Source of the DNA: Nitrococcus mobilis | GTDB taxonomy: Bacteria > Pseudomonadota > Gammaproteobacteria > Nitrococcales > Nitrococcaceae | Direction: 5' to 3' | Assembly: GCA_024102725.1 (NCBI GenBank) | Contig: JAGFJL010000047.1 | Location: forward strand, 1 to 40,000 | Length of the DNA stretch: 40,000 nucleotides | Made by a program: the position numbers and the translations under genes | The notes under the pieces: model-generated | What the model saw: the letters and a program-made list of their open reading frames with translations, nothing else | Databases searched by the model: none | Told to the model about the DNA's origin: nothing | Shown here: one piece after another, positions 1,900 through 36,662 of the stretch | How positions within the stretch are numbered: the stretch's first letter is position 1 | Layout of the letters: every line of letters starts with the position of its first letter

Positions 1900-2002
1900 A
1901 GAGCAAATTCCAGCCACGAAAGAAGCGCTCGATCGCTGGAATGCTTTGAACGCACTGACGATAAAAGAGACGTAGGAAAAAGGCCGTGGAGATCCATCTG
2001 TA

Positions 2003-6197: not shown

Positions 6198-6900
6198 AGC
6201 ACCCGATCCAGATTCGCTGGAGCGCCTGGAATTGTTGTCCGGGCAAATACAGCGTGCCAAGGACCAGCACCGATTCGGCGACGCGCTAGATGCGGCGGTG
6301 CGCGCCGTCGATGATGCCGAGAGTGTAATCTCGCAATTTGAAAAACTCGCCGGATTTTCGGGGTTGGTTAACGGCTTTCTCGATCCATCGGACCGGCAGC
6401 ATTGCCTTGTCCTTCTGACGCGAGTGCGAACCCTGGGGCAGCAGCTTCCCCAGGTGTCCGACACTGCGACGTTGCAGGATGGGACAACCAAGGTTTCGCA
6501 ATTGCCGAGTCAGGTCGAGCAGGCCGATGCGATCATAAACCGCGGCTGGAAGGCAAAGATCGACCAGGCATTCGCTGCAACCGGTGAACTCGGCGGTGTC
6601 TTGCGGGAGATTCCCGAAACCCGGCAACTGGGCTCGGAAATGGAGGCGATCGCACTCCAGGCAGGGCAGCTCAAGACAGATTTGGAGGACGCTGAAAGAA
6701 GCATAGCCCGATTTAAGGCCCTGGTCGCCGAACGGGAAGGCACCACGGACAGCTTGACAAATTTGGGGGCGGGGAAAGAGGTGGTGGACTTCCTGTTCGC
6801 CGTGGCGAACCAGTCGGCCACGCTTGAAACCGTAACCGCAGAGGTCCGGAGTTGGCTTGATGAGCGGAATGCGCTTGCACGCTTCAAGGTGGGGTTATAG
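6190..6900 (+). CDS. hypothetical helical/coiled-coil protein, last gene of the + strand operon
   Basis: 236-aa ORF. Its start overlaps the upstream stop by 8 nt, with the same ATGGCTGA junction as at 2889. Ala/Leu/Glu/Gln-rich helical composition. No enzymatic motif. Confidence 0.6.
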   Translation: MAEAPDPDSLERLELLSGQIQRAKDQHRFGDALDAAVRAVDDAESVISQFEKLAGFSGLVNGFLDPSDRQHCLVLLTRVRTLGQQLPQVSDTATLQDGTTKVSQLPSQVEQADAIINRGWKAKIDQAFAATGELGGVLREIPETRQLGSEMEAIALQAGQLKTDLEDAERSIARFKALVAEREGTTDSLTNLGAGKEVVDFLFAVANQSATLETVTAEVRSWLDERNALARFKVGL

Positions 6901-10000: not shown

Positions 10001-13000
10001 CGGCCGCGCGGGTTCCGCCGACGCTCGCCGGGTTCGGGGCGGAGTTCGACGACTGGGTCGCGGCCGATCAGTTCGCCCCACACCCGAGCGGGATCACCGA
10101 GGGTGGCGCTCATGCCGATGGCTAGTGGCCTCGGTTGTTCGGGTCCGTTGATGGCCGATCGTGCCAGCAGGCGACGCAGGGTGTAGCCGACCTGAGCGCC
10201 GTGGATATGGGTATAGAGGTGGATCTCGTCGGCCAGGATCGCCCGCGGCGGCGGATGGGGGGCGATGTCGCCGAACAGGGCCCCATAGGCCGGGTTCTGC
10301 TGCCACTGGTGCAGGGACTCAGTGACCGGAAGGAAGAAGTCCGGCGGCTGCTGCTGCAAGGCGAGCTTGGAGCCTACCCAGCCGTCGAATGCCCAGGTGC
10401 ACCGGGTGCAGGCAAGTTGGTCGGCGCCCGCATGTCCCTTGCCCGGATGCAGGTGCAGGTCGCCGTCGCAATCCGGGCAGGCGAAGAAAGGAAAGCGCAA
10501 TGCGCCGCCAGGGGCGGTGGTCCAGATTCCGCTCAAGTACTCGGGGATGGTCTCGAATTGACCCGGAACCTGCCAGTTCTGCAGCCCCAAGGTAAGGGCG
10601 GGCAAGCCGCCGACGTTGGCGAGAGAGGCGAGATAGCCCGTGATGCGCTGGGCCTGATTCGCCGCAAGCCGCACCCGTGGGTAGACGAGTACGGCACGAG
10701 TTCCTTGGATGCCTTGCAGGCGGTCGTAGGCGGCACCGGCGATCAGCGGCAGACAGGCCGCCTCGGTCTTCCCGGCCCCTGTATCGGCGGTGATGACGAA
10801 GGTGTTGTCATCGCTACGGCCCAGCCAGGCGGGGAAGATGGTGCTCAGGGCGCGCACCTGGAAGCCGGCGAGGGGCGGATCGTCGTGGTTCCAGTGCTTG
10901 CGCAGCATGGCCTCCAGGCCATGCAGGACGTGGCGGGCCGTCATGTTTTCGCCGACGCCGTCTTGGATCTCCTGCATGACGGTAGACAGCGAGCGGTCCC
11001 GCACCGGCTTGTCGCGGTCCCGCACCTCGACCTTGAGTGAGCGGACCAGGTAGGGACGCCGGTCGGCGTCGCCGACGGCAAAACGCTGTTTAACGTAGCG
11101 TACCTCGCGGGCGAGTTCCGCCATGCGGCTACGGATTCTGCCTTCCTCGTCCATCGCTAGGTGGCCGTGGGACTGGAGTCGGCGCAGAGCGTCCGATACC
11201 TGGCCCCTGGACGTTTGCAGGCTGGTAGCCAAGTCGGGCAGAGAGGTCCAGCCCTCGTAGATGCCAAAGTTGATGCGCTGGACCTCCTTATCCTCCAGGT
11301 GGTTGAGGACCTCGAAGTCCTTGTCGGACAGGGGCTCCTTGGGGGATTCCTCCACATCCTCGGGAGTGGGCGCCTGTTCCAACCACTCCACGGTGGCGGA
11401 ACCGTTCACTTCCTTGATCTCGACCAGTCCCTCCCGGGCCATGGCTTCGATAACGGGCCAGACGCGGTCGTCGCCCGCGGTGTCCATCCAGACGAAGCGG
11501 TGACGGATGACGTTTTCGTAGAAGGAGGCATAGCGCCCGCGGCGTACATGGGTGGTGACCTCCTCCAGGCGGTCCCGCACGGTCTGGGCATCGCCGGGGA
11601 AAGGTGGACGGGGCGGGTCCAGGGGCTTGGCGGTCCAGAATGGGCCGAATCGGCCGTGCTTCTGGTTCAGTTGGATGTGGCCCAGGCGTACCAGGTCGCG
11701 CAGTTGGCCGAAGGGAACCGGGGACGACAGGTACAGCTTCTTCTTGATCTCGTAGTCGGCTGCGGTGCCATACGGATTCTTGATGGCGATCTCCCGGATG
11801 GCGGCCAGCAGTTCTTCCAGTTCTCTGGTGAATTCGGGCAGGGCCTCGGCCGGTTCCTCATCCGGGGCGTCGATGAGGGGCGGCAGTTCGCCGTCCTCGG
11901 TGAATCCTCGGACCCGGACGTTGACTGGGACCTTGCGGCCCGTGTTGTCGGTGATGTGAACGGTTCCCACCTCCGCGCTGTCGAACACCAATTCACGCAG
12001 GATCTGGGCCGCATCCAGCGTATTTTCATCCGGTGGCACCACGTCCAGGAGGCGGCGGCTGACGATCAGGATCAGCTTGGTCCGGGCGCGGGTGATGGCG
12101 ACATTTAGCCGTTCCACGCTGAATATAAAGTCCGCCTCGGCCAGGGCGAACTCCGGGTCGGATACTGTGTAGCTGGCGATGATGGCGTCGCGCTCCTTGC
12201 CCTGGATCTTGTCCACGGTCTCCACTACGGCGCCGTTCCCGGCCGGGTCGTTGGCAAGGGCGGCGCGGATGGCGGCATTCTGGGCCCGGTGGGGACTGAC
12301 CATAGCGAGTCGCTCCTGCCACACGGTCGCGGACGGCGTGGCATCTTGAGGCTCTCCGGTTGTCATCGCGGCATGCAGCCGGCGCGTCAGTCGGGCGGCA
12401 ACCGCGACCTCGAAGGGATTGGATGTACCCGCCGGGGGGCCGTCGTGTAGCAGAACGCAGAGGGGGTACTCGGGATCCAGAGCCAAGCGCTCCCAGTCCG
12501 CCAACCCATCGGCCCAGTCCCCGGCGAGTTGCAGGCGCTGGTGTTCAGATGCGTCGGTTGGGCGGTAGCGACCGGGGTAGAACTTGGACTCTGGGAAGCA
12601 GGTCAGCGGGGCATTGAGCCGGAAGGTCTCATCCAGCGGGTACTCTGCCACCTCGGCGGACTTGAGAAAGTCGTAGAGGGAGCCGCCGAGACGGCGCCCC
12701 TCAATCTCCTGAGTGTGGACGGTCCGCACCGGGGGCAGTTGCTTGTCGTCGCCGGCCACCAGGACGCGGCCGCCGGGGGCAAGCCCGGCTAGCGCCATGA
12801 GGCCGTTGCTGACCACCATCTGGGAAGCTTCGTCGATACAGACCAAGTGGAACAGGGGCGAGGTGGGCCCGTCGGTGACGGCCGGTTGCCCGGCATTCAG
12901 CAGTTTGTTCAGCGCCCACACCGAGCAGCCGACGATGAGGTGCTCGGTCTGCAGGGCATCCCACGCCTCGGCGGCGGCTTCGCGTTGCCGGAAGGAGATG

Positions 13001-13443
13001 TGCCGGATGGCAGGGCTGAGCCCGCTGCCCCGCTGGCTGCCCAGGTAGAGCACGTCCGGCGGGGAGGGCACATAGCGCGCCGATTTGGACTGGATGGCAT
13101 CGAGCAGATTGCCGATGGCGTTCAGCGTAAAGGCGTTGACCAGAATTCGGCAGGGCAGTCCAGCCGCCCGGCGGGCCTGCAGGTAGCCCAGCGCCATCCA
13201 AGCCAGCACGTAGGTCTTGCCGGTGCCAGGCGGCCCCTGGATAAGGCCGACGCGTTGCTCGGCCAGCCTGTTCCAGGCGGTGATTTGGGCCTGGCGCAAG
13301 GGGAAATCACCTTTCTCGTCGATCTGCGGTTGCGCGAAGTTCTCCAGTCCCTGGCGCCAGAGTCGGTGGTCGTCCTCGGGCAGGGTGCGGGCAAAGACCT
13401 GGGGCGCCCTCAGAAACTGGAGTATGTCCGCTCGCACGCTCAT
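7009..13443 (-). CDS. 2144-aa double helicase: N-terminal SF1 (Upf1/Dna2-like) helicase, winged-helix-like middle, SF2 DEAD/DEAH helicase, C-terminal DUF1998/MrfA-type Cys cluster
   Basis: - SF1 part: GPPGTGKT (aa 70-77), CIDEASQM (aa 202-209), VAGDDKQLPPV, SPHRAQ, VDKIQGKERD, NVAITRARTKLILI.
- SF2 part: ADTGAGKT (aa 885-892), ADEIH (aa 1071-1075), MSATLG (aa 1111-1116), QRKGRGGR (aa 1336-1343). A CPDCDG...CTRC zinc-ribbon insert sits at aa 989-1015.
- C-terminus: CVDGCQGC, about aa 2110-2117.
- The 6.4-kb ORF is uninterrupted. Its start overlaps the upstream nuclease stop (ATGA). Confidence 0.9.
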   Translation of the reverse strand: MSVRADILQFLRAPQVFARTLPEDDHRLWRQGLENFAQPQIDEKGDFPLRQAQITAWNRLAEQRVGLIQGPPGTGKTYVLAWMALGYLQARRAAGLPCRILVNAFTLNAIGNLLDAIQSKSARYVPSPPDVLYLGSQRGSGLSPAIRHISFRQREAAAEAWDALQTEHLIVGCSVWALNKLLNAGQPAVTDGPTSPLFHLVCIDEASQMVVSNGLMALAGLAPGGRVLVAGDDKQLPPVRTVHTQEIEGRRLGGSLYDFLKSAEVAEYPLDETFRLNAPLTCFPESKFYPGRYRPTDASEHQRLQLAGDWADGLADWERLALDPEYPLCVLLHDGPPAGTSNPFEVAVAARLTRRLHAAMTTGEPQDATPSATVWQERLAMVSPHRAQNAAIRAALANDPAGNGAVVETVDKIQGKERDAIIASYTVSDPEFALAEADFIFSVERLNVAITRARTKLILIVSRRLLDVVPPDENTLDAAQILRELVFDSAEVGTVHITDNTGRKVPVNVRVRGFTEDGELPPLIDAPDEEPAEALPEFTRELEELLAAIREIAIKNPYGTAADYEIKKKLYLSSPVPFGQLRDLVRLGHIQLNQKHGRFGPFWTAKPLDPPRPPFPGDAQTVRDRLEEVTTHVRRGRYASFYENVIRHRFVWMDTAGDDRVWPVIEAMAREGLVEIKEVNGSATVEWLEQAPTPEDVEESPKEPLSDKDFEVLNHLEDKEVQRINFGIYEGWTSLPDLATSLQTSRGQVSDALRRLQSHGHLAMDEEGRIRSRMAELAREVRYVKQRFAVGDADRRPYLVRSLKVEVRDRDKPVRDRSLSTVMQEIQDGVGENMTARHVLHGLEAMLRKHWNHDDPPLAGFQVRALSTIFPAWLGRSDDNTFVITADTGAGKTEAACLPLIAGAAYDRLQGIQGTRAVLVYPRVRLAANQAQRITGYLASLANVGGLPALTLGLQNWQVPGQFETIPEYLSGIWTTAPGGALRFPFFACPDCDGDLHLHPGKGHAGADQLACTRCTWAFDGWVGSKLALQQQPPDFFLPVTESLHQWQQNPAYGALFGDIAPHPPPRAILADEIHLYTHIHGAQVGYTLRRLLARSAINGPEQPRPLAIGMSATLGDPARVWGELIGRDPVVELRPEPGERRRNPRGREYFYFVQPEVESRGQDIAGASTSIQSLMCLAHGMRRRTGRDGGYRAIVFLDSIDKLKRLHGDYQDAEEARHLAALRTRLFDDDLGNSQPRRECCGQPATCDRFREGECWYFAATDNAQVTARGRYRPGNALIVSQRPVFAGEKGKVEEMIRSSDIVFTTSSLEVGYDDPDMALVYQHYAPNNLASFIQRKGRGGRGVDDRPVTGVTLSPYSPRDSWYFRRPQRMLDSAHFDVPLNAANYFVRRGQVLATLLDALARHTTVHGRTGLTIVDGRSRLNKQTQQFAEHLVHTIFGAEIYRQLEAESLDNLWRQATDEVSISFSSHMSLRDLRESLPWIAKTLFATANLPALAVHFESERGEARSQDEAINLAFEAATPGNMTRRYGFSLLHWLPPRAGRMPWLSDEVYKVSNGFEIPPLKKGPDALLRELPVEAREEVGPDIHPNVCHPNGVVLETAGRMLGAGWTAHWYYDAEKRAVQRIDTSEPDNGLKVHPKSRGNLRAFTYVEAQPDSGHAISIRGIERFGERFEAYIGGRMEGNQTGLALTSLTWGADVELRLMDPDQPDIPITQTFIHPRSSKTLLHGYRVQTEGVRLRLNSAYLTDFIQTEVERQREHPDGRWHRGQMFRYLIGSQARAAGINAYEANRAADLLFSAAGHPELRDRLRGLVRRWDSQTLRNLLQQTFTDMLAYHPLLSERRVDRLADSLGNRKFQHVFAQALEAVSSEDQFAAYLRSVLVHSFSIRLKQAFVLHGRGDDRQVLIHAKLPIQFGADAEDVITVAENGAHGDGTTRMFVDNLEAVLADWSSGGLADCPNAREDAIIEQAFQKIHRHEEWRSLDPRNPEQMAGLAAELGLGSAVEEGSMQSVLRLLYGTESVGTQRFDLYSLHGEITAIDARLRDTMAREASQWELVSAVVRAAADSAPATPRLSELISAYQGLDEASQEESLGAEARLADQVYRLSARLCVDGCQGCLHTGSDLMPAALAEAVVSLRLLERLTA

Positions 13444-15737
13444 TCGGGTGCCTCACCGAGGAACGCCATGAAGTTCGCCGCCCTCCCGGTGGTGAAGTCC
13501 TTAAAGGTGCGGTCAAGGAACCAGCCGGCTTCTCCGGTTTCCCGGAGCAGGCGCTGAAAGTCATCGCCCTCGTAAAGCGTGGCAGGGACGTTGACCAGCA
13601 GGGTGCCACTATTGGCGAAGTCGGGCCGCTCGGGGGCGATTCGTGCCTCGAAGTTGGGCCAAAACTGGGGGTTGAGCCGGATGTCCGGATTGTCGTCGGT
13701 GAGGATGAGGTCGAAATTATTGGATGACAACTCGCTCTCCCGGCTTTCCGGCGGCACGGAAAACAGCATGCCGTATTGGCCCCAATTGGCCTTCCAATGC
13801 CTCAAAAGGGTCATCTGGGCGATGCAGCGGGCCCGATCGCGCCGCTGGCTGAAGGGCTGGGCCAGGGAGACCAGGGCCTCCAGCATGCCGGTGCGGTTCT
13901 CCAGGAGTTCGAAGGCGTGAAGCAGGTCCAGGTCCACGGCGTTGAGCGGGTCCAGGGTCTGCTGAAAGCGGAAGGGCCGCTTGTTCAGGCGCAGGAAGGC
14001 ATAGTCACCGCCCTGTTTAAGGGCAGTGGCGTTCTTGTGCATCAGCCACTCGGCCAGCGCGCGCATGGCATCCAGGCGGGCGATGACATCCTGGCGTACC
14101 GACTCGGGCTCGATGCGCCCGTCCCGCAGATCGCGACATACGTCGATGGACAGGCGGGACGAGAAGGGGCGGCGGAACGGAGGGTCAGGGGCGTAGGCAG
14201 GCGAAAGGGCTGGTTCGGTGTTCGCCAAGGCGCCGGTCACCTGGCGCAGGTCGTAGGCCACCATGACCGGCAATGCATAGACCTGCTCAACTACGCTGCG
14301 CAGGGCGGTGGCCGGAAGATGATGGATTCCGCGGAATTCCGGCTCGGGGACCACGTCATCGGGAGGAAACATGCGGATCAGGTGGAGCAGGCCAGTTCGT
14401 ACCAGCGGATTTTCCAGGTGGCGCGCCACTGCGTACTGCAAGCCGGCGGCCTCCGAAGGCTCATATAAAAAAATGTGGGCCTGGATCTGCTCCGCGGGTG
14501 AATCCTCGTGGGCGGTGTTGTGGCGGTCGATGGCCGCCAGGTCCGTGACCAGTTGGCCCAGGACCTTGCACAGCGCTTCGCTCTCCCGTTCCGGGCTTCC
14601 AGCGGGCAAGACCTCGACCAGGTATTCGTTGTTCCCACCCTCACTACGCAGGTACCCGAGCGTGATGAGGTTGTCCTCCACCGGATCGACATCGACGACG
14701 AGGTAGAGGCCCACGTCCACTCGCGGCGGCATCAGGTAACTGGCGACACCCGGTATGCGCTGGACTTCGCCGGCGACCAGTGCCTGGGCACGCCGCGTCA
14801 GCAGTTCAGCCCGTCGGCGCAGCGCCCAACTGCCGGCGCTAGAGGCCCGCAGCCCTCGGGCTTCAGCGAGCTTGCCAACTTTGTCAGTGCCCAGCCGATC
14901 TAATGCCCGTTTGGCCTCGTGAGAGACCCCGGCAACCGCCGACACATCCCGTTCCGCAGGCAGAATCCTTTCGTCAATGGACTGGCTGCAATGGCGCAGA
15001 TACTCACATTGTTCGCACTTGAAATATATATGGAAGAAGGTGTTGTCCCAGGTGGACGACACGATACTCTCCGCAATTACGGGTATCTCGTTGGACAAAA
15101 AGTCCGCAACCAGGCGTTGGTAGGGCTCTAGCCGGAATTCCTCGGCGCGGTAGAGGCCATCCTCGCCCTTGCTGCCTGGTGGCAAGCACCAGATCTGGCC
15201 GGTTCGATCCAAGACGCCCGGTGCCCTGAGGGCGGCGAGGGTTGATTGAAGCACCAGGCTGTAAAAAGCCACTTGTGCTTTGTGGAAGGTTGTAGCGCGT
15301 TGGGTGGCTTTGATGTCGATGATCTGAAAGCGGGGTTCGGAGTCGCCCCGCTCAATCCGAACCAGGTCCGGTAGAGCTCGTCTGACCGTGACGTCTTTGG
15401 AGAGTCCGAGTTGTTCTCGCAGTTGACTGTGGGACTCGAGGACCAGCTGGTGTGCATAGGTTTCTGATCGGCGGCCCTTAAGGAACGCCGTGGAGAGATC
15501 TTGCGAGAGATAGTCCTCTCCAACGGCTGGGCCCAAAACGCCGACTTCCGCGGCCAAGCGTGATACCACCTTCCGTTCGAACTTGTTGCCCAGTTGGGCC
15601 CAGGCCGGAATCACTAGATCCCGCAGGATCGGGATTTCATCGCGCTCTTTCCCGGTGAAGGTATCGTACCGGGTCTTTCGTGGGCAGCGATACTGAAACC
15701 AGGATTTGACCGTAGAAGCGCTGAAGGCGAGGGGCAT
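13440..15737 (-). CDS. RecB/Cas4-like PD-(D/E)xK nuclease with Fe-S cysteine signature and a C-terminal RNase-H-like region (TM0106-type architecture, inferred)
   Basis: C18 (YRCPRK), D124 (PDLV), D141-I-K143 (IIDIKAT), Q155xxxY159 (KAQVAFY), then C241-x2-C244-x5-C250 (CEQCEYLRHC). This is the Cas4/AddB pattern of one N-terminal Cys plus CX2CX5C. Downstream are an HhH-like VAGVSHEAKRALDRLG and a block LYLVVDVDPVEDNLITLGYL ... HIFLYEPSEAAGL, which resembles the RNase-H-fold domain of TM0106-type RecB-like nucleases. Confidence 0.75.
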   Translation of the reverse strand: MPLAFSASTVKSWFQYRCPRKTRYDTFTGKERDEIPILRDLVIPAWAQLGNKFERKVVSRLAAEVGVLGPAVGEDYLSQDLSTAFLKGRRSETYAHQLVLESHSQLREQLGLSKDVTVRRALPDLVRIERGDSEPRFQIIDIKATQRATTFHKAQVAFYSLVLQSTLAALRAPGVLDRTGQIWCLPPGSKGEDGLYRAEEFRLEPYQRLVADFLSNEIPVIAESIVSSTWDNTFFHIYFKCEQCEYLRHCSQSIDERILPAERDVSAVAGVSHEAKRALDRLGTDKVGKLAEARGLRASSAGSWALRRRAELLTRRAQALVAGEVQRIPGVASYLMPPRVDVGLYLVVDVDPVEDNLITLGYLRSEGGNNEYLVEVLPAGSPERESEALCKVLGQLVTDLAAIDRHNTAHEDSPAEQIQAHIFLYEPSEAAGLQYAVARHLENPLVRTGLLHLIRMFPPDDVVPEPEFRGIHHLPATALRSVVEQVYALPVMVAYDLRQVTGALANTEPALSPAYAPDPPFRRPFSSRLSIDVCRDLRDGRIEPESVRQDVIARLDAMRALAEWLMHKNATALKQGGDYAFLRLNKRPFRFQQTLDPLNAVDLDLLHAFELLENRTGMLEALVSLAQPFSQRRDRARCIAQMTLLRHWKANWGQYGMLFSVPPESRESELSSNNFDLILTDDNPDIRLNPQFWPNFEARIAPERPDFANSGTLLVNVPATLYEGDDFQRLLRETGEAGWFLDRTFKDFTTGRAANFMAFLGEAPE

Positions 15738-15839
15738 GGGTTACCGCTGAATAAATTCTTATTCCCTTGTCATGGGACACTATACATTAAGGTGACCGGC
15801 CGATGACGTATCGTTTTGGGGAAGTTCGCTCGGTACAGT

Positions 15840-16745
15840 TGACCTGCCCCCGCAATTAGGACCGCGTTCCAGTTAGCTCAGTCCGCTCAGTCAACTACCT
15901 CCCAGGGGCAAGATCCCAGGGAGAATTCCTGCCGCCAGTAGGCGGCAAATTCGGCCGGCACCAAATAACCCAGCGCCGAATGCGGTCGCTTTTCATTGTA
16001 ATCACGTCGCTAGGCCGCGATCTCGGCTCGCGCATGGGCGAGACTCGTAAACCAGTGCTCGTTCAAGCACTCATCCCGTATAAGTTGCACTCCCCGCTCA
16101 TAGGCCCATTGGTCGAGTGCCTTACCCGTGAACTCCGGCCCCTGGTCGGTTCGGATCGCTTTGGGCACACCCCGGAACCGTACCGCCCGTTCCAGAGAGC
16201 GCACCACGTAGGCGCCCGGGATGCTGCAATCGACCACAATGTCGAGTGCCTCCTTGGTGAAGTCATCGGGGCGCTCGGCAGCTCCAGAGGTTCACGATTC
16301 ACCGCCACACCCTGGCGCCGCCGACGCTTGCGCACCGCCAAGCCTTGCTGCTGATAGTGGCGCAGCACCTTCTTATGGTTGACCACCACGCCTTCGCGCC
16401 GTAGCAGCGCGTGAATCCGCCGATACCCGAATCGCCGCCGCTGTTGCGCCAGATCCATGATCCGGCCCCGTAGCGCTTCGTCTGAGGCGCTGGACATGGC
16501 CTAATAGCGCAACACTGACCTCGAGATCCCCACAAGCCCGCATGCACTTCGCTCCGAGACGCCGGTGCGCTCGCACATCTCCGCCACCGCCTCACGCTTT
16601 GGCTTGTGGAGTCAGTACTTTCCCGACAGCGCTGCCTTCAGTGCCTCGTTATCGAGCATCGACTCGGCCAGCAACTTCTTCAGCCGGGCGTTCTCCGCCT
16701 CCAACGATTTGAGCCGCCGGCGCAGATTGCGCGGCGGGCCGGTAT
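15840..16745 (-). mobile_element. IS3-family (IS407-group-like) element, 3' two-thirds: orfA C-terminus, decayed orfB, outer inverted repeat
   Basis: The outer end reads TGACCTGCCCCCGCAATTAGG from 15840 inward; IS407-group ends as I recall them start TGACCTGCCCCC. The orfA tail is RRLKSLEAENARLKKLLAESMLDNEALKAALSGKY (16612-16745). Its 5' portion is found separately at 19500-19592. Confidence 0.75.
15891..16611 (-). pseudogene. IS3-family orfB (DDE/rve transposase) pseudogene
   Basis: Reads KREAVAEMCERTGVSERSACGLVGISRSVLRY*AMSSASDEALRGRIMDLAQQRRRFGYRRIHALLRREG, with an in-frame TAG. A frame change and loss of the NQxWxxD...DDFT segment follow near 16260-16290. Then DCSIPGAYVVRSLERAVRFRGVPKAIRTDQGPEFTG and AEIAA*RRDYNEKRPHSALGYLVPAEF, where TAG sits where W is expected. 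Confidence 0.8.
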
Positions 16746-16978
16746 ATCGGAGCAGACGCTGTACCGCTGGCCGGATGGGTTTCTCAGCGCGGGCAAGCAG
16801 GCGATGAACGGCCGTGCCATGCGCAACGAGCAAGCCAAGGCGATCGAACGTCTGCTGGGCGAGCTTGCTGAGCGCAACCAGGTCATCGGCGAGCTCACGG
16901 TCGCTAATCGCATTTTAAAAAACCCCCGAAGGCCGGCGGCCTGCCCGGAGAAAGAGAAACTCGGGCCTGCGCTAGACT
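16735..16978 (+). pseudogene. 5'-truncated HTH transposase orfA fragment of a second element (element X)
   Basis: The + strand reads AQIARRAGISEQTLYRWPDGFLSAGKQAMNG...AIERLLGELAERNQVIGELTVANRILKN. This is an HTH followed by a leucine-zipper-like segment, typical of IS3-like orfA proteins. There is no start codon and no upstream IR. It abuts the antisense IS407-like orfA at about 16740. Confidence 0.55.
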
Positions 16979-17155
16979 GAGCGCACTCCGAGGGGAGCGG
17001 CCGTTGACTTTTTGGTGGACCACCCCGTTTAAAAACGTGGCCCAGGGACTGTAGCGGACCCGATAGTGGTGACGCGCCTGTGCGATCCCGGTTAGGAAAA
17101 TGATCCATTCCGCCATCCCGCCCTTCGGAGGATTTTTGCTCGAAGGAGGACAGTG

Positions 17156-17940
17156 ATGGCCAAGACGAAGCGAGGGCGAGGGGCGGTTCGCACGACGAAC
17201 CTGGCGGTGGTGCATCCGCATGCGGCAGGGCTCGATGTCGGTGCCCGATTCCATGTCGCGGCGGTCGCGCCGGAGCGGGCCGAAGAGCCGGTGAAGAGCT
17301 TTGGGAGTTTCACCGACGATCTGCATGCGCTCGTCTCTTGGCTGCAGGGGGCCGGCGTCACGAGCGTGGCGATGGAATCGACCGGAGTGTACTGGATCCC
17401 GGTCTACGAGATTCTCGAAGCGAAGGGATTCGAAGTGTTCTTGGCCAACGCGCGGGGACGCAAAGGCGGTGCCTGGGCGGAAGAGCGACGTGAACGACGC
17501 GCAGTGGCTCCAGCGGCTGCATCAGTACGGACTGCTGCGCCCGAGCTTCCGGCCGAGCCAGGAGATTGTCGCCCTGCGGGCGTACCTGCGCCATCGCGAG
17601 CGGCTGCTCGATTATGCGGGCGCGCACATCCAGCATATTCAGAAAGCGCTCACGCAGATGAACCTCCAACTTCACCACGTCGTGACCGACATCACCGGTG
17701 CAACGGGCATACGCATCATTCGTGACATCGTGGCCGGAGAGCGTGACCCGCAGCGCCTCGCCCGGCATCGAGATACCCGCTGCAAGGCTTCGCTCGAGAC
17801 CATCACCAAGGCGCTGGTGGGGAACTATCAGCCCGAGCATGTCTTTGCGCTGACCCAGTCTTTGGAGCTCTACGACTTCTACCAGCGGCAGGTCGCAAGC
17901 TGTGATGTGGCCATCGGGCGGGTGATGGCGGGATTGGTGT
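17156..17940 (+). pseudogene. IS110-family (DEDD) transposase, frameshifted and 3'-truncated by IS insertion
   Basis: RBS GAAGGAGGA lies 5 nt before the ATG at 17156. Motifs: AAGLDVGARFHVA, MESTGVYWIPVYEILEAKGFEVFLANAR, then in the next frame DAKAVPGRKSDVNDAQWLQRLHQYGLLRPSF. One extra G in the run at 17454-17457 explains the frame shift. The reading frame ends at the IRL of the IS3 element at 17941. Confidence 0.8.
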
Positions 17941-17990
17941 TGCCCCGATTTGGTGGAGCCTTCAAAGTGCTCAAATGGAGGGCATCCACT

Positions 17991-18332
17991 ATGACGCAAT
18001 CCAAATTTGCTATGCGCTATGCGCTATGCGCTATGCGCTATGCGCCGGAGTTTCGCCAGCAGATGGTCGAGCTGGCGCGCGCCGGTCGCAAGCCCCCGGA
18101 GCTGGCCAAGGAATTCGGCTGTACCGTTTGGTCGATCAAGCGTTGGCTCAAGCAGGCCGAGCGGGATGCTGGCCGCGGCGATGGCGGGCTGACGAGGGCG
18201 GAACGCGAGGAGCTCAGCCGGTTGCGCCGCGAGAATCGCCAGCTGCGCCTTGAGCGGGAAATCCTCTCAAAAGCCGCGGCCTGGTTCGCTCAGGAGACCG
18301 CGCCGAATTCGAAGCGCTCTTCGGGTTCGTGA
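17991..18332 (+). CDS. IS3-family transposase orfA (HTH plus leucine zipper)
   Basis: MTQSKF...YAPEFRQQMVELARAGRKPPELAKEFGCTVWSIKRWLKQAERDAG...REELSRLRRENRQLRLEREILSKAAAWFAQE. A heptamer repeat lies in codons 7-19. Confidence 0.8.
   Translation: MTQSKFAMRYALCAMRYAPEFRQQMVELARAGRKPPELAKEFGCTVWSIKRWLKQAERDAGRGDGGLTRAEREELSRLRRENRQLRLEREILSKAAAWFAQETAPNSKRSSGS
18011..18045 (+). repeat. perfect heptanucleotide tandem repeat (TATGCGC) x5 inside the 5' end of IS3 orfA
   Basis: Direct reading: TATGCGC at 18011, 18018, 18025, 18032 and 18039, preceded by a partial GC. The unit length is not a multiple of 3. Confidence 0.95.
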
Positions 18333-19191
18333 GAGCGAACCGGGCCTGTTATCCGGTGGCGGTGATGTGCCGGGTGCTGAAGGTCTCCGTGAGCGGTTAC
18401 TACGCTTGGCGAAAGCGCCCGCACTCCAGGCAAGCCGCGCAGGACAGGGCGCTGAGCGCCAGGATCGTGGCCATTTACCGCCACTCCGATGGCACCTATG
18501 GGTGTCCACGGATCTACCAGCAGCTGCGCGCCGAGGGCGTGCAGGTGGGACACAACCGCGTCGCACGTCTGATGCGCGTGGCGGGACTGCGCGGGGTGAG
18601 TCGCCGGCGGCGTTTTGTCACGACGACGCAGCGCGCCTCCATGGCGGCGCGTCCGGCACCGGATCTGGTACGACGCGACTTCCGTGCCGAAGCGCCCAAC
18701 CGGCTGTGGGTCGCCGATGTAAGCCATATCCCGACGTGGGAGGGGTTCTTGTATCTGGCGGTCGTTCTCGATGTGTTTAGTCGCCGTATCGTCGGCTGGG
18801 CGATGGCGGGGCACCTGCGCACCGAGCTCGTGCTCGCGGCCTTGGAGATGGCCTTTGCACAGCGTCGTCCCGAGGCCGTCATCCATCATTCGGATCAGGG
18901 TGCGCAATACACCTCGATTGCTTTCGGCCACCGCTGCAAGGCGCTCGGGGTGCGTCCCTCCATGGGTCGGTCGGAGACTGTTTCGACAACGCCATGGCCG
19001 AGAGCTTCTTTGCCAGTCTCGAATGCGAGCTATTGGAAAGGCACCATTTCCGCACCCGCGAGCAAGCGCGCTCGGCCGTGTTCGAATACATCGAAGGTTG
19101 GTACAACCGCCGTCGCTTGCATTCTGGGCTTGGCTATCTGTCACCTTCCACCTTCGAGCGGAGGTACTGTACACAGACAACACCACCTTAG
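18329..19191 (+). pseudogene. IS3-family transposase orfB (rve/DDE), frameshifted
   Basis: The frame is -1 relative to orfA. Motifs: NRLWVADVSHIPTWEGFLYLAVVLDVFSRRIVGWAM and HHSDQGAQYTS. After VRPSMGRS the frame is lost; it should read GDCFDNAMAESFF. The sequence MAESFFASLECELLERHHF...WYNRRRLHSGLGYLSPSTFE continues in another frame. One missing G at about 18973-18975 would restore the frame. Confidence 0.8.
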
Positions 19192-19220
19192 AACTTCCAA
19201 CTCTCCACGAAATCGGGGTA

Positions 19221-19449
19221 AGTCTACATGTTCCGCTCTCGTTACAACGAGATCAGGCCGCACTGGGCGCTCGTGCCGGTTGACGGCGCCGATCCGGTGA
19301 CACCGCAGGCCGTCTACGTTCATGGCCACGCCGTACAACTCCCGAAGTGGCAAGGTTGGGCGAAGGCCGCAAGGGCGAAACTACGCGAGATGATCGACGG
19401 TGCGCACCTGCCGCTGAGTGCTGTTGAGGAAATCGCCGGAGCGTCATGA
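19221..19449 (+). pseudogene. C-terminal fragment of an rve-type (DDE) transposase, probably the 3' end of element X
   Basis: FRSRYNEIRPHWALVPVDGADPVTPQAVYVHG... is the YNxxRPHxAL signature of integrase-core transposases. It begins directly at the IRR of the IS3 element and has no catalytic core upstream. Confidence 0.6.
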
Positions 19450-19499
19450 GCACTCACACAAACCCAGAACGGTCGTGTCCGGTTGATTTCGGAGCCAAG

Positions 19500-19592
19500 A
19501 CATCTTCGGAAAAACGCTTCTTCTTCATGTCCGTCTCCTCGATCAGACGGACTGTACTAACTTTCCGCTGGTCTAGAAATCGGGGGCAGGTA
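19500..19592 (-). mobile_element. detached 5' end of the IS407-like element: terminal IR, RBS hairpin, first ~9 codons of orfA
   Basis: - The reverse complement of 19581-19592 is TACCTGCCCCCG. This matches the TGACCTGCCCCCG end at 15840 apart from one missing base.
- Minus strand: GTCCGTCT-gatcgagg-AGACGGAC, then ATG (19528) AAG AAG AAG CGT TTT TCC GAA GAT, giving MKKKRFSED. This is the usual IS407-group orfA start (MKK(K)RFxEE).
- Homology stops near 19500. Confidence 0.6.
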
Positions 19593-19606
19593 TTTGCTGA
19601 TATAAA

Positions 19607-20668
19607 TCACACGGAGCATAGGCAATTCTCCCGTAGTTGTGCAAGCAACAGTTGTGTTAACTGCATGTAGTCCTTCGGGATGTTCTGAATATCATTCCAT
19701 GGTCGAGTGAGCCCACTACCAAATTCCCAGACCCCTCTGGTCCAGGCCGTATGCGGCTCCAAGCATTTCAGGTAAGGGGTGAATTCCTCTTCGTTAAATG
19801 CGCCAATACGTGCGTGGAGGTACTCCATGACATAGCCCATACTAATTATCCCAGCGCCATGAACAAGCCGGGAGGTTTTAGGCTTGTGGCCTTTCCATGC
19901 ATAATCGTAGACGTTTTGCACAGCAGCAAAGAAATTGCTGATCAACCGCAACCCCTTTTCGAAACCGTCTTCGTCGCGAGAGAACTCTCGTAGAGCCCCG
20001 TCGGAAGCAGAGTTCATGATTACTCTTTGGATTACAGTGTCCTGAATAATACCTTGTGGGTTGGTGTGTTGCTTAATTTGACCGCGCAGCGATGACGCAT
20101 CGCTATAATTCAAGTATTCAACCATTGCGGCCGCCGCCGCGCGAGATCCCAGACGGTCTGGTAGGTCAGTGACCCCCGGAAGGAGCTCATAAATAAGTTG
20201 CTTCGGTAAAGGTCGTGTGTTGTTAATCAAGATGAACTGCTTCCGAAGTTCATCTTGATCTCTGCACAGCAAAGCGGAAACCACCAGTTGAAATTTTGTT
20301 TCGATGTCCATTAACGCGGACAAACGCTGCTGTCCGTCAACGACAAATCCAGCCGCGTCGTCCAGGTCGACTGTCAGGGTCGCAACATCGATGGCTCCTT
20401 GCTTTATCAGCTTCGCGCCACGTGTGAAAGCCACAACCACAGAATTTGGCAAGAGAGCCTCGCGCCTCGACAGGTACTCGCGAATTTCCTTAATGTGACT
20501 TGCGACCTGCGGGCGCTGGAAGCCACTAAGATGACCTTTCTCATCGCGGCCAACCCGATCTATTTTTGCAAAGCGCAGTATCTCGCCCGCAGTAGCGCAA
20601 AAGCAGCAGACTTGTACGGAGTCACCCTGGTTAGGAACCAGTGCTGTATAGCGCAGGATATTGGCCAT
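19607..20668 (-). CDS. DGQHR-domain (DndB/DpdB-like) protein, copy downstream of dpdA
   Basis: Motif blocks: RDEKGHLSGFQRPQVASHIKEIREYL, LLPNSVVVAF, VVDGQQRLSAL (the DGQHR signature with Q in place of H), FILINNTRPLPKQLIYELLPGV, SRLVHGAGIISMGYVM, GVWEF and WNDIQNIPK. It is collinear with the protein at 21947-23140. Confidence 0.8.
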   Translation of the reverse strand: MANILRYTALVPNQGDSVQVCCFCATAGEILRFAKIDRVGRDEKGHLSGFQRPQVASHIKEIREYLSRREALLPNSVVVAFTRGAKLIKQGAIDVATLTVDLDDAAGFVVDGQQRLSALMDIETKFQLVVSALLCRDQDELRKQFILINNTRPLPKQLIYELLPGVTDLPDRLGSRAAAAAMVEYLNYSDASSLRGQIKQHTNPQGIIQDTVIQRVIMNSASDGALREFSRDEDGFEKGLRLISNFFAAVQNVYDYAWKGHKPKTSRLVHGAGIISMGYVMEYLHARIGAFNEEEFTPYLKCLEPHTAWTRGVWEFGSGLTRPWNDIQNIPKDYMQLTQLLLAQLRENCLCSV

Positions 20669-21950
20669 TAGCGAGGACCTGCTTGAGGTATTTGTGAAAA
20701 ACGTAGAGATTATGAATTCCGCGGCGCTTGTTCCGGTTGCTTGAACGGAACAGTATCGTCTCGACGCCTGCCTGACGGCAGACGTTGCATTCGCACCTCT
20801 CCCACTGTCGTGCCTCCAAAGTCCTCTGGTACTGCACTCGTGCTTTTGTCAGCTTCGCGTCAACAGTGGCGCGACTGGAATTGCTGCCGTCAAGCAGTGG
20901 CTCTATGTAGCGCAAAACCGCCTCCAGGGTTGGACTGAGACTCATTTCCCTTGAGGCATAGGCTCTAACTGAGGTGAGAGCGTCGGTTTCCAGTTCGAGC
21001 AAGTGCTCCAACCGTCTGCGACCTGACCTAACCTGCCGTTGAAGAACAAGATTCTCGTGCACCTGCGGCACCCGCACCGCGCTGTAATACTCCATCTCCC
21101 CGTGCGCATTTAGAAAATAGTAGTTTCTTGAACCATCCTTAAAGGCCCGGATGAGAGGAGAACTGGTGTCGAAGCTATCGATTCGATATGGGGCAAACTC
21201 GCTGAGTTGGTCCGCCTTCGCAAACCCAAGCAGGTGCAGGGACACATTCGGGTATCGCCCCACCACGTTCATCACAGCGCCTAGCGCCAGGTGGATGCTC
21301 TTGGTATTAAGAGGAGCCAATCCGCCGACTGCGATGTAGCGATATCCCATATGCACAAGGCGGCGCGCTGCTTCCGCCATACTGCCCGGCGACCAACCTT
21401 GAACAACGCCGATTGGCTGGAACGTCGCATGGTGCCTGCGGTGCTCAAGCAAAAATGACTCAGCCAATTCGAGGGTCAAATCAAACCGTCGGTGAGCTTC
21501 CGGTGTGCCGCCGGCAAGGCCGGCTACGCTATGGCGTTCGAAATCGAAAACTATGTGGTCAACGGAGAAACCGTGAGTGAATCCTGCCTCTTCGTAGAAT
21601 GCAACCGTATCTTCGGGCGTGTATGGTGGATGTTCGAGGCTAGCGTATGAGAAGGCACCACAGTCTCCAAAAATTGGTATGTCTTGGAACCGAGGGTCCT
21701 CAAGACGTAGAAAACGGCGTGCTCCAACCCGGCGAAAACGCATCGCTTGGGATTCAGTATACTTACCCTTTATCACATGGTCGCCAACCGTTGTTCTTGA
21801 AACTAGGACTCCGTCGTAAGGCAAGCGGTTATGTAATTCGTGGGGGTAAACATCGTCCCAATACGGTTTGCGACCAGGTGCGTTCTCATCGTTGATGAAG
21901 TCGTAGTTTGGGTCGACGTAGTCTAAACTATCCGCGAAAATAAATTTCAC
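20631..21950 (-). CDS. dpdA: DpdA, DNA-targeting tRNA-guanine-transglycosylase-like enzyme (7-deazaguanine DNA modification)
   Basis: - N-terminus MKFIFADSLDYVDPNYDF.
- FGDCGAFSY aligns with the TGT DSGGFQ active-site motif.
- TGT-type zinc site CECNVC...(23 aa)...H, near the C-terminus.
- GTG start overlaps the upstream DGQHR stop (GTGA).
- Flanked by DGQHR genes, with queC/E/D nearby. Confidence 0.85.
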   Translation of the reverse strand: MKFIFADSLDYVDPNYDFINDENAPGRKPYWDDVYPHELHNRLPYDGVLVSRTTVGDHVIKGKYTESQAMRFRRVGARRFLRLEDPRFQDIPIFGDCGAFSYASLEHPPYTPEDTVAFYEEAGFTHGFSVDHIVFDFERHSVAGLAGGTPEAHRRFDLTLELAESFLLEHRRHHATFQPIGVVQGWSPGSMAEAARRLVHMGYRYIAVGGLAPLNTKSIHLALGAVMNVVGRYPNVSLHLLGFAKADQLSEFAPYRIDSFDTSSPLIRAFKDGSRNYYFLNAHGEMEYYSAVRVPQVHENLVLQRQVRSGRRRLEHLLELETDALTSVRAYASREMSLSPTLEAVLRYIEPLLDGSNSSRATVDAKLTKARVQYQRTLEARQWERCECNVCRQAGVETILFRSSNRNKRRGIHNLYVFHKYLKQVLANGQYPALYSTGS

Positions 21951-23140
21951 GCACGCTCCCGTTTTGACGCTTCGTAGTCTAGCTTAATAAGTTGTTCTGA
22001 TAGTGCTTTCACATGTTTGCTAACGTTTTGTATTTGGTTCCATTCCATTCCCAAGTCTTCCCACACGCCGCTGATCCAGCAGCATTTCGGCTCGATACGC
22101 TTGAGCGCGAATCGTATCTCCCTTTCCTGATCGTCGCTTCCTTGAGTTCGCACGATAATGCGGTCCATTAGGGTGCCCATTGCCTTGATGCCAGCCGAGT
22201 GAGTTAAGCGACTGTGGGACGGGGGCAGAGCCCACGCCTCTAGAAACGTATCTCGCACGGCAGACCAGTACGTGAGCAGTGTGTTATACATAGCCGTTGT
22301 ATCGGTGCGCCCCTCACCAACTCCTTTGAATTGAGCGAGTGCGCCTAACGGGCTACCGATGCTGCGCCGGATAACATCGATTAAGGCCGTGTCGACGATG
22401 AAATGATCAGTCGTACCGTGGCCGTCGGTCGATGCACGGCGAATACGCTCGTAGAACGGTGAACGGGGGTCGCGATTCAGTATGTTGCACAACTCGCTAG
22501 GGAGTCGGCGAACTGCCAAGTCCCTAGGCAGATGGGTATCCACCTCAGGCAGGAGTTCGTTAATCAGTCGCGTTGGCAGCGGTTTGGCCTTGTTGACAAG
22601 AATGAACTGCTCACGCTGAGTCTCAAGATCGCCAGCAATAAATGCTACGACCGGCACCGGGAGACCGGTAGATTTACTCTTTGATAGCGCGAGCGAGCGC
22701 TGCTGCCCGTCTACGATCCAAGCAACACGGGTACCCTCCTCTCGAAGTGGAATCATCAAGGTACCGGCATGAGCGATGGGGTTAAGTCCATCCGGTTCCC
22801 GCCCCCGTGTCTGTTTAAATTCCACTTCCGGCGAGAGCGCCAAGATGATGGCGTTCGGGAACAAGACGTCGCCCGCGTCGAGATATTCAACTATGTTGTT
22901 GACGTGATTACGTATCTCTTTGCGCTGGAAGCCCTGTAACGAGGTTTTCTCGTCCCGATGGATGCGGCTGATATCTGCAATACGGACGATGTCCTCACCG
23001 GGCATGAAGAAGGCGAAGACTTCTATGCCCCTACCTTGACTCGTCCGAAGGGCACGAACGATGAGCGTGTCTTCGCCGTTTACCACGAGCGTGCCTTCTT
23101 CACTTCCCGAAACAACCGGGCAAAGCGCCCTTGTTCGCAA
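21947..23140 (-). CDS. dpdB: DGQHR-domain protein, DpdB-like, copy upstream of and translationally coupled to dpdA
   Basis: Motif blocks: RDEKTSLQGFQRKEIRNHVNNIVEYL, LFPNAIILAL, IVDGQQRSLAL, FILVNKAKPLPTRLINELLPEV, SRLTHSAGIKAMGTLM, GVWED and WNQIQNVSK. The start is ambiguous: ATG at 23140, or GTG at 23086, which overlaps the upstream TAA. I cannot decide which of the two DGQHR genes is the DpdB orthologue. Confidence 0.8.
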   Translation of the reverse strand: MRTRALCPVVSGSEEGTLVVNGEDTLIVRALRTSQGRGIEVFAFFMPGEDIVRIADISRIHRDEKTSLQGFQRKEIRNHVNNIVEYLDAGDVLFPNAIILALSPEVEFKQTRGREPDGLNPIAHAGTLMIPLREEGTRVAWIVDGQQRSLALSKSKSTGLPVPVVAFIAGDLETQREQFILVNKAKPLPTRLINELLPEVDTHLPRDLAVRRLPSELCNILNRDPRSPFYERIRRASTDGHGTTDHFIVDTALIDVIRRSIGSPLGALAQFKGVGEGRTDTTAMYNTLLTYWSAVRDTFLEAWALPPSHSRLTHSAGIKAMGTLMDRIIVRTQGSDDQEREIRFALKRIEPKCCWISGVWEDLGMEWNQIQNVSKHVKALSEQLIKLDYEASKRERA

Positions 23141-36652: not shown

Positions 36653-36662
36653 AGATGCTCCC

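What the first reader, a model, noticed from the sequence alone, without database searches (positions are those of the whole stretch)
15738..19606. The helicase/nuclease block and the dpd module are joined only through an IS pile without target duplications
- The IS407-like ends at 15840 and 19592 face outward. Removing everything between them would leave about 116 bp between the nuclease start (15737) and the DGQHR stop (19607).
- The 4 nt flanking the two ends differ (CAGT on the left, TTTG on the right), so I see no target-site duplication.
- The two sides differ strongly in GC.
- This fits an IS-mediated recombination that brought two unrelated blocks together, rather than a simple insertion into a pre-existing dpd island.
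- It bears directly on whether 1-15.7 kb is the cognate restriction half of Dpd or an independent system.
- The IS end also lies only 102 bp upstream of the nuclease ATG. The only -10-like element I see (TATAGT, minus strand, 15779-15784) has no good -35. The native promoter may therefore have been removed or replaced.
Basis: partly seen in the sequence, partly recalled or inferred. Interest (0 to 1): 0.6.

Follow-up and report, generated by a model that had tools for sequence, protein, structure and literature searches.

The report
Decayed IS pile inside mosaic Dpd island
A heap of dead insertion sequences sits in the short gap between the DNA-marking half and the DNA-cutting half of one known anti-phage system (Dpd); the halves belong together by design but have different ancestry, and similar mixing is seen in relatives that carry no insertion sequence.

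Summary
An IS407-group right end starts at 15840 and a left end stops at 19592. Both face outward, 102 + 14 = 116 bp of spacer remain, the 4-nt flanks differ (CAGT / TTTG), and GC steps from about 0.62-0.64 to 0.51-0.55.

- **Not unrelated blocks.** The left block carries DpdF, G, H and J homologues plus a PD-(D/E)XK nuclease. The order dpdC-B-A-B, nuclease, DpdJ' recurs on one strand in 38 other loci. In L002-L004, L050, L098 and L100, dpdB abuts the nuclease with no IS.
- **GC step.** It also occurs in IS-free relatives.
- **One IS element.** Both ends map colinearly onto a single full-length IS407-group copy.
- **Uninformative duplication.** The left IR tip has lost at least one base, so one small terminal deletion could explain both the tip defect and the missing duplication.
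- **Different ancestry is real.** The nearest relatives are 86-91% identical in DNA up to about 10 nt before the nuclease ATG. Their modification genes are only about 64% identical. The same decoupling holds among the IS-free relatives L004 and C174.

An IS-made junction remains possible but is not needed. Ordinary; modest interest. Other notes of this scan had already described this IS pile and the Dpd halves.

The parts
7..6900 (+). DpdF (5' part cut by the contig start), DpdG, DpdH and a 236-aa protein at the DpdI position: the restriction-half operon, convergent with DpdJ'
   Evidence: NCBIfam best hits are DpdF 363 bits, DpdG 60.8 bits and DpdH 284 bits, all below the equivalog cut-offs. 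The same order is seen in L002, L005, L009 and C174.
7009..13443 (-). 2144-aa helicase: an SF1 helicase N-terminal part fused to a DpdJ-like SF2 part (DpdJ')
   Evidence: NF041067 DpdJ 333 bits over residues 713-1436, plus SF1 hits over residues 60-468. It is 91% identical to L002/L004.
13440..15737 (-). 765-aa PD-(D/E)XK (RecB/Cas4-like) nuclease, translationally coupled to DpdJ'
   Evidence: Weak TIGR03491 hit. There are 441 homologues, the best 92% identical. It is always followed by the 2144-aa helicase.
15738..15839 (-). 102-bp spacer upstream of the nuclease. Only about the 10-17 nt next to the ATG are shared with relatives. 15748-15839 is an orphan sequence.
   Evidence: BLAST homology to L002-L006 stops at 15747 and to L159 at 15737. 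Local alignments give no significant match to any relative's upstream region, to the loci, or to the rest of the genome. No promoter was found.
15840..16720 (-). IS407-group element, right part: intact terminal IR, broken orfB (rve, rve_3, HTH_21) and the orfA C-terminus. It carries internal deletions of about 76 and 60 bp.
   Evidence: Maps to L150 IS positions 224-1234. Pfam hits on minus-strand pieces. Similar to IS3-family elements of Ralstonia and Mycetohabitans.
16721..16915 (+). HTH (orfA) fragment of another IS3-family element ('X'); its own left end is missing
   Evidence: Pfam HTH_28 and HTH_Tnp_1. tblastn hits IS3-family transposases. An 87% identical relic lies on contig C147.
16917..17937 (+). 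IS110-family fragment: DEDD domain, frameshift near 17460, 3' part missing
   Evidence: Pfam DEDD_Tnp_IS110 split over two frames. About 68% DNA identity to annotated IS110 transposase genes over window 16917-17895.
17938..19223 (+). IS3-family element with imperfect 39-nt terminal repeats, orfA (holding a 7-nt tandem repeat at 18009-18046) and a frameshifted orfB
   Evidence: Inverted repeat I1 at 17940-17978 / 19183-19221, 74% complementary. HTH_Tnp_1, HTH_21, rve and rve_2. 70% identical to Ralstonia IS3-family DNA.
19224..19502 (+). C-terminal integrase-core fragment and right end, probably of element X
   Evidence: YNEIRPHWAL motif. Relics 82-86% identical on contigs C165 and C161 both stop at window base 19502. 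No Pfam or plasmid hit.
19503..19592 (-). IS407-group element, left part: terminal IR lacking its second base, and the first ~9 codons of orfA
   Evidence: Maps to L150 IS positions 3-91. Hits ISPa32-family and Ralstonia IS3 elements, including the same Ralstonia record as the right part.
19593..19606 (-). 14-bp spacer between the dpdB2 stop codon and the IS end
   Evidence: Sequence.
19607..24063 (-). Modification operon: DUF6884 protein at the dpdC position (23080-24063), dpdB1 (21947-23140), dpdA (20631-21950) and dpdB2 (19607-20668)
   Evidence: NF041059 DpdA 505 bits; NF041060 DpdB 455 and 370 bits, all above cut-off. PF21818 for the 327-aa protein. The same four-gene module is in L004 and L011-L013.

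Best explanation
Window 1-24 kb is one Dpd (7-deazaguanine) restriction-modification island. It belongs to a widespread variant in which a PD-(D/E)XK nuclease and an SF1-DpdJ fusion helicase follow the dpdC-B-A-B modification operon on the same strand.

An IS407-group element landed in the short dpdB2-nuclease spacer. It was then invaded by another IS3-family element, which in turn received an IS110 element and a further IS3 element. Deletions and frameshifts eroded the whole pile.

The two halves are functional partners in kind but not co-inherited. The restriction block (nuclease, DpdJ', I, H, G, F) reassorts as a unit in this Chromatiaceae-like clade, with its boundary at the nuclease start codon, and it does so in relatives without any IS.

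On this reading the pile is a passenger at a pre-existing module junction. One small deletion at the left IR tip removed the target duplication.

Shown: the anatomy, the synteny, the mosaic ancestry and the eroded IR tip. Inferred: the order of events, and that the IS did not make the join.
For: - Dpd identity of both sides.
- Synteny in 38 loci, with only que genes or nothing between dpdB2 and the nuclease.
- IS-free adjacency in three independent assemblies, L002, L003 and L004.
- One IS element: the two pieces are colinear, in the same orientation and complementary on L150, and both hit the same Ralstonia record.
- Mosaic ancestry: DNA identity to L002-L006 is 86-91% from 3483 to 15747, against about 64% for the modification genes.
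- Modification-gene tree: the window groups with L011 and L013 to the exclusion of L004, with SH-aLRT 100.
- Calibration: the window, L004 and C174 are discordant in all three pairs (nuclease 80-92%, DpdA 55-60%). Other pairs with nuclease identity of 80% or more typically have DpdA identity of 82-100%.
- At least seven different upstream contexts occur among relatives at 75% identity or more. Homology always ends within 0-17 nt of the ATG.
- A GC step at the nuclease start occurs without an IS.
- The IR tip lacks a base. A single 6-nt deletion instead of a 1-nt deletion would also remove the duplication.
Against: - None of the 4 flank positions match. No empty site or IS-free copy of this particular hybrid junction was found.
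- The 92-nt orphan spacer has no homologue, so its origin is open.
- The pile sits in the interval that holds the ancestry break.
- The nearest relatives of the modification module (only 61-75% identical) carry a different, convergent restriction set with DpdD and a PLD nuclease. A replacement of the restriction half downstream of dpdB2 therefore did happen in this lineage or a near one.
Confidence: 0.5

Rival explanations
1. A refined form of the first reader's idea: the IS407-group element made the present junction. This could be recombination between two IS copies, one downstream of dpdB2 in an L011-like island and one 102 bp upstream of the nuclease in a donor. It could also be an IS-mediated adjacent deletion that removed an older restriction set. 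Either route fuses a modification module and a restriction block of different ancestry and leaves no target duplication.
For: - No duplication at the IR-defined ends, whereas the Ralstonia copy has GGGT.
- Ancestry breaks across this interval.
- In L011-L013, the nearest relatives of the modification module, dpdB2 is followed after 24-133 bp by a convergent DpdD, PLD and DpdJ set. An IS 14 bp after dpdB2 fits an insertion into such a spacer.
- The 92-nt spacer is foreign to every sampled relative.
Against: - Homology to the nearest restriction-block relatives ends at the nuclease start, 92 bp from the IS end.
- The same module decoupling exists between IS-free L004 and C174.
- The result reproduces the native order, strand and close spacing of dpdB2 and the nuclease, which an arbitrary IS event would rarely give without selection.
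- No remnant of DpdD or a PLD nuclease was found in the spacers or the genome.
- The eroded IR tip explains the missing duplication equally well.
Confidence: 0.33
2. Assembly artefact: the contig is a chimera joined inside repeated IS sequence, and the two Dpd halves come from different molecules or organisms in the sample.
For: - The genome is a fragmented draft of 185 contigs.
- GC and ancestry change across the pile.
- No independent assembly covers the left junction.
Against: - Two independent Logan contigs from two runs are 100% identical to the window across the right junction and 600 bp into the pile (18987-21872).
- None of the pile's elements has another long copy in the genome that could mislead an assembler.
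- The two IS407 pieces are complementary parts of one element.
- The join recreates the native dpdB2-to-nuclease order seen in L004.
Confidence: 0.05
3. One reading: 1-15.7 kb is an independent helicase/nuclease defence system that an IS placed next to a dpd modification module by chance.
For: - The DpdF/G/H/J hits are below NCBIfam equivalog cut-offs.
- Some close relatives show no dpdA/B within 10 kb upstream of the nuclease (L007, L015, L159).
Against: - Best family hits are to DpdF, G, H and J in the canonical order.
- 38 loci link the nuclease-DpdJ' pair to dpdC-B-A-B and que genes.
- In the genome of L014, the modification genes lie on the same contig at the other end of the same cluster.
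- Where que genes alone precede the nuclease (L009, L160), the link to 7-deazaguanine remains.
Confidence: 0.03

Closest known systems
Dpd restriction-modification island (dpdA-K) of Salmonella enterica serovar Montevideo (Thiaville et al. 2016, PMC4801273, cited from the reference list of PMC10164549; Gedara et al. 2023, PMC10164549)
   Same: - DpdA and DpdB score above the curated cut-offs.
- A dpdC-position gene and adjacent preQ0 synthesis genes are present.
- DpdF/G/H/J homologues stand in the same relative order.
- The split into a modification half (A-C) and a restriction half (D-K) is as described in PMC10164549.
   Different: - Two DpdB paralogues bracket DpdA.
- No DpdD, DpdE or PLD-type DpdK was found in the window or the genome.
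- A 765-aa PD-(D/E)XK nuclease and an SF1-DpdJ fusion stand in their place.
- The restriction homologues score below equivalog cut-offs.
- Island queC carries an internal deletion and queE a frameshift.
- An IS pile splits the dpdB2-nuclease junction.
IS407 group of the IS3 family. The 1.2-kb size, TGACCTGCCCCC termini and 4-bp target duplication are stated from my own knowledge of ISfinder descriptions. Here they are illustrated by the Ralstonia copy L150.
   Same: - The terminal repeat sequence matches.
- OrfA (HTH) and OrfB (HTH_21 + rve) lie on one strand.
- The pieces are colinear with a 1234-bp copy that has a 4-bp duplication.
   Different: - Only about 970 of 1234 positions remain.
- orfA and orfB are broken.
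- 2.8 kb of other IS debris replaces positions 92-223.
- The left IR tip lacks a base.
- There is no target duplication.
Module shuffling in restriction-modification and defence islands, and IS-mediated adjacent deletion or inter-IS recombination (general knowledge)
   Same: - Cognate halves show unequal divergence.
- There is a sharp homology break at a gene boundary.
- An IS without a target duplication sits at the break.
   Different: The break coincides with the nuclease start rather than the IS end. The same break occurs in IS-free relatives, so IS involvement is not demonstrated.

Membership tests
Dpd system | DpdA, a TGT-like DNA transglycosylase | tested here: met
   NF041059 scores 505 bits against a cut-off of 200 for 20631-21950.
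Dpd system | DpdB, a DGQHR/ParB-like ATPase partner | tested here: met
   NF041060 scores 455 and 370 bits against a cut-off of 300 for the two paralogues.
Dpd system | DpdC, which converts preQ0-DNA to ADG-DNA | tested here: inconclusive
   The 327-aa protein at the dpdC position has only PF21818 DUF6884 (40.9 bits) and no NCBIfam hit. The gene position is conserved in L004 and L011-L013.
Dpd system | Restriction genes dpdD-K | tested here: inconclusive
   DpdF, G, H and J are the best hits but fall below equivalog cut-offs. DpdD, DpdE and the PLD-type DpdK were not found. A PD-(D/E)XK nuclease stands in their place.
Dpd system | Physical linkage of the modification and restriction halves in one island | tested here: met
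   38 loci carry dpdC-B-A-B upstream of the nuclease and DpdJ' on one strand. Six show direct adjacency.
Dpd system | 7-deazaguanine in the DNA and a modification-dependent restriction phenotype | not testable with these tools
   This needs LC-MS of the DNA and plasmid or phage restriction assays.
IS407 group (IS3 family) | Terminal inverted repeats beginning TGACCTGCCCCC | tested here: met
   12/12 match at 15840 and 11/12 at 19592, where one base is deleted.
IS407 group (IS3 family) | orfA (HTH) followed by orfB (DDE/rve) on one strand | tested here: met
   HTH_21, rve and rve_3 on minus-strand pieces; the orfA start lies at 19566 and its C-terminus at 16612-16720. All are broken.
IS407 group (IS3 family) | 4-bp target-site duplication | tested here: not met
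   Flanks are CAGT and TTTG, and no IR-consistent repeat appears within 6 nt either way. The control copy L150 has GGGT.

The most novel reading that the evidence does not exclude
The restriction block (nuclease, DpdJ', I, H, G, F) is a self-contained, exchangeable cassette. It works with any 7-deazaguanine modification module, even one only 55-60% identical, and it reassorts at a fixed boundary immediately 5' of the nuclease start codon. That would make Dpd immunity modular in the way specificity and effector parts are swapped in other defence systems.
Probability: 0.25. Interest if true: 0.55.

Novelty: new member of a known kind. Interest (0 to 1): 0.3.

Why it matters
- IS ends without a target duplication and a GC step are weak grounds for inferring an IS-made fusion. 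IS-free relatives show the same GC step, and the IR tip here is eroded.
- The more useful result is that the two halves of Dpd islands reassort. Restriction blocks that are 80-92% identical are paired with modification modules that are only 55-60% identical, in three different islands. This suggests the restriction half reads the modification generically.
- This island also looks to be in decay: the IS pile, a queC deletion, a queE frameshift, and no DpdE or DpdF N-terminus assembled. Its activity cannot be assumed.

Tried and rejected
- **Close kin:** the nuclease was not found in 40 related genomes, so there is no empty site there.
- **Other copies of the pile's IS elements in the genome:** only short relics of 82-87% identity were found. 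Precise ends therefore had to come from a Ralstonia copy.
- **Origin of the 92-nt spacer:** no match in 150 related loci, in the genome, in upstream regions of relatives (local alignment against shuffles), or downstream of dpdB2 in L011-L013.
- **Remnants of a DpdD/PLD set:** none in the spacers or the genome.
- **Alignment of the spacer with the conserved promoter-like region of L014, L074, L077 and L108:** not significant.
- **Target duplication at shifted boundaries:** only a chance-level GGTA that lies inside the IR.
- **Read support and transcription:** An exact-protein look-up of the nuclease found no other contig.
- **Family of the 19222-19446 fragment:** no Pfam or plasmid hit.
- **Two metagenome loci (L075, L077):** they could not be searched beyond the fetched flank.


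Full report
**What is there**

The window is G000:C46:1-40000, from a 185-contig draft of 3.25 Mb with GC 0.607.

NCBIfam names both sides of the finding as Dpd genes.
- On the + strand: 7-1899 DpdF-like (cut by the contig start), 2003-2896 DpdG, 2889-6197 DpdH, then a 236-aa gene.
- On the - strand: 7009-13443, a 2144-aa protein with an SF1 helicase N-terminal part and a DpdJ-like SF2 part, followed by 13440-15737, a 765-aa PD-(D/E)XK nuclease.
- Right of the pile, on the - strand: dpdB2 (19607-20668), dpdA (20631-21950), dpdB1 (21947-23140) and a DUF6884 protein at the dpdC position (23080-24063).
- Beyond these lie divergent queC/E/D genes and, from 32 kb, conjugation genes of an integrative element: TraI_2 relaxase, coupling protein, TraE and TraK.

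PMC10164549 states that DpdA/B/C make the modification and DpdD-K give restriction.

**The observation**

It is correct in every measurable respect.
- The + strand reads TGACCTGCCCCC from 15840. It reads ...GGGGGCAGGTA up to 19592.
- A 1234-bp IS407-group copy from a Ralstonia replicon (L150 229-1462) served as a ruler. It has a clean 4-bp duplication, GGGT.
- Window 19591-19503 equals IS positions 3-91, and window 16720-15840 equals positions 224-1234. Both are on the minus strand.
- The same Ralstonia record was hit by both pieces in separate searches.
- The ends are therefore the left and right ends of one element, or of two copies of one kind in the same orientation. They are not ends of unrelated elements.
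- The spacer is 102 + 14 = 116 bp. The flanks are CAGT and TTTG. No IR-consistent direct repeat appears when either boundary is moved by up to 6 nt.
- Per-gene GC is 0.617-0.638 on the left and 0.510-0.545 on the right.
- No sigma-70-like promoter is found in 15500-20000.

**Anatomy of the pile**

Pfam on stop-free pieces, repeats and DNA searches give a nested structure.
- 15840-16720 (-): IS407-group right part.
- 16721-16915 (+): IS3-family orfA fragment.
- About 16917-17937 (+): frameshifted IS110 fragment lacking its 3' part.
- 17938-19223 (+): IS3-family element with 39-nt imperfect terminal repeats and a frameshifted orfB.
- 19224-19502 (+): integrase-core C-terminal fragment. Its right end is shared, to the base, by relics on contigs C165 and C161.
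- 19503-19592 (-): IS407-group left part.

IS407 positions 92-223 are missing, as are two further stretches of about 76 and 60 bp. No intact copy of any of these elements is assembled elsewhere in the genome. The pile is old debris.

**Are the two blocks unrelated? No.**

Homologues of the nuclease are abundant (441 proteins). Scans of genome and metagenome contigs with an alignment of them gave 136 loci.
- tblastn with the window's proteins shows the order dpdC-B1-A-B2, then nuclease-DpdJ' on one strand, with DpdI and DpdH convergent. This holds in 38 loci from Rhizobiales, Sphingomonadales, Caulobacterales, Myxococcota, Bryobacteraceae and others.
- Where a gap of 1.3-6 kb separates dpdB2 from the nuclease, the two gaps examined (L035, L016) hold preQ0 synthesis genes.
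- In L002, L003 and L004, whose nuclease is 92% identical, dpdB2 ends 26 bp before the nuclease start and there is no IS. These are three assemblies from different samples.
- L050, L098 and L100 show the same adjacency with about 60 bp.
- The GC step is not tied to the IS either. L004 has 0.49 against 0.63. L159 and L007 step from 0.45-0.49 to 0.58-0.60 at the nuclease start.

**Yet the halves have different ancestry**

- Against L002-L006 the window is 86-91% identical in DNA, in one continuous alignment from 3483 to 15747. The modification genes of L002-L004 are only about 64% identical in DNA and 38-62% in protein.
- The best match to dpdB2 in 5.8 billion proteins is 64% identical.
- In a tree of concatenated DpdB1+A+B2, the window groups with L011 and L013 (SH-aLRT 100) to the exclusion of L004.
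- L011-L013 carry a different, convergent restriction set: DpdD, a PLD nuclease and a 1.5-kaa DpdJ.
- As calibration, other locus pairs with nuclease identity of 80% or more typically have DpdA identity of 82-100%. The exceptions are L050-L095 (57%) and all three pairs among the window, L004 and C174, the Chromatiaceae genome contig of L014. In those three pairs the nuclease is 80-92% identical and DpdA 55-60%.
- Module exchange is therefore real and recurrent in this clade. Two of the three islands involved have no IS at the junction.
- In C174 the modification operon sits at the other end of the cluster, in the order dpdC-B-A-B, a 1124-aa ORF at the DpdE position (not scanned against any family), F, G, H, I, then convergent DpdJ' and nuclease.

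**Where the break lies**

- Homology to every close relative ends at the nuclease start: at 15747 for L002-L006, 15737 for L159, and 15739-15741 for L160 and L007.
- The alignment shows shared bases only to about -13 to -17.
- Among relatives at 75% identity or more I saw at least seven different upstream contexts:
  - two modification-module lineages;
  - que genes;
  - a UvrD and PD-(D/E)XK pair;
  - a NERD protein;
  - two small genes;
  - an island end with a conserved promoter-like motif.
- The break is thus 92 bp away from the IS end. The 92 nt at 15748-15839 match nothing sampled.

**Did the IS make the join?**

This cannot be settled.

Points in favour:
- There is no duplication.
- The pile lies in the interval that holds the break.
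- An IS 14 bp after dpdB2 fits insertion into the short dpdB2-DpdD spacer of an L011-like ancestor, followed by replacement of what lay beyond it.

Points against:
- The break at the nuclease start is general and occurs without an IS.
- The outcome reproduces the native order, strand and spacing.
- No remnant of an older restriction set is left.
- The left IR tip has lost at least its second base. A single deletion of six bases instead of one would give the present sequence from a normal insertion that had a CAGT duplication. This is my inference.

I therefore rate the passenger reading at about 0.5 and the IS-made junction at about 0.33.

**Assembly**

Two Logan contigs from two runs are identical to the window over 18987-21872 and 19224-20726. 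They confirm the right junction and two inner junctions. The left junction has no independent support. A chimera is unlikely for three reasons: the pile has no long repeats elsewhere in the genome, the IS407 pieces are complementary, and the join recreates the native gene order.

**State of the system**

All large dpd reading frames are open. However:
- Island queC has lost residues of about 50-197, and queE is frameshifted.
- Housekeeping queC and queE lie on C15 and folE2 on C38.
- DpdF lacks about 340 N-terminal residues at the contig start. No DpdE or DpdF N-terminus is assembled anywhere.
- The nuclease operon is separated from the dpdC-B-A-B promoter by 3.75 kb of debris and has no recognisable promoter of its own.

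Whether restriction is active is open.

**Earlier notes of this scan**

They describe the same IS graveyard, the broken que genes and the Dpd nature of 1-6.9 kb. My tests agree with them. A note that treats the nuclease-helicase pair as a candidate undescribed effector pair is qualified here: the pair is the restriction core of a widespread Dpd variant.

**Verdict**

This is an ordinary IS graveyard at a module junction of a known defence system. The noteworthy by-product is clear evidence that Dpd modification and restriction halves reassort.

Noticed in passing
window 24139-25065: Island queC is a remnant: residues about 1-49 and 198-229 are joined at about 24315. queE is split over two frames near 24668-24698. 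queD (25062-25607) is intact. Housekeeping queC and queE are on contig C15 and folE2 on C38.
   Followed up: partly
window 1-1899 and the whole genome: The contig starts inside DpdF, at about residue 340 of a 959-aa relative. No DpdF N-terminus or DpdE homologue is assembled anywhere in the 96%-complete genome, so the restriction half may be truncated.
   Followed up: partly
window 18009-18046: A 7-nt unit, GCTATGC, is repeated about five times in tandem inside the N-terminal coding part of the inner IS3-family orfA.
   Followed up: no
window 26316-26792: Further IS3-family debris (an HTH_21 orfB N-terminus) lies between the que genes and the conjugation genes. The cargo region holds more than one IS graveyard.
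   Followed up: no
L014:850-996, L074, L077, L108, L078, L015 (upstream of the nuclease): In relatives where the nuclease-DpdJ' unit stands at an island end, the upstream 110 nt share a motif, GTAGCGAACGCC, followed 17 nt on by TAACTT-like bases. This looks like a -35/-10 pair. The window has no counterpart.
   Followed up: partly
L050, L095, L098: A second case of decoupling: nuclease 75-84% identical but DpdA only 57% between L095 and L050 or L098. In L095 the modification module is on the opposite strand.
   Followed up: no
L060:9035-9607 and L062:8800-9390: Two distant relatives carry IS3-family transposase genes directly upstream of a truncated nuclease gene. IS hits next to this gene are not unique to the window.
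   Followed up: no
window 32099-40000: TraI_2 relaxase, a TraD/TrwB-type coupling protein, DUF4400, TraE and TraK: the Dpd island is cargo of an integrative conjugative element.
   Followed up: no
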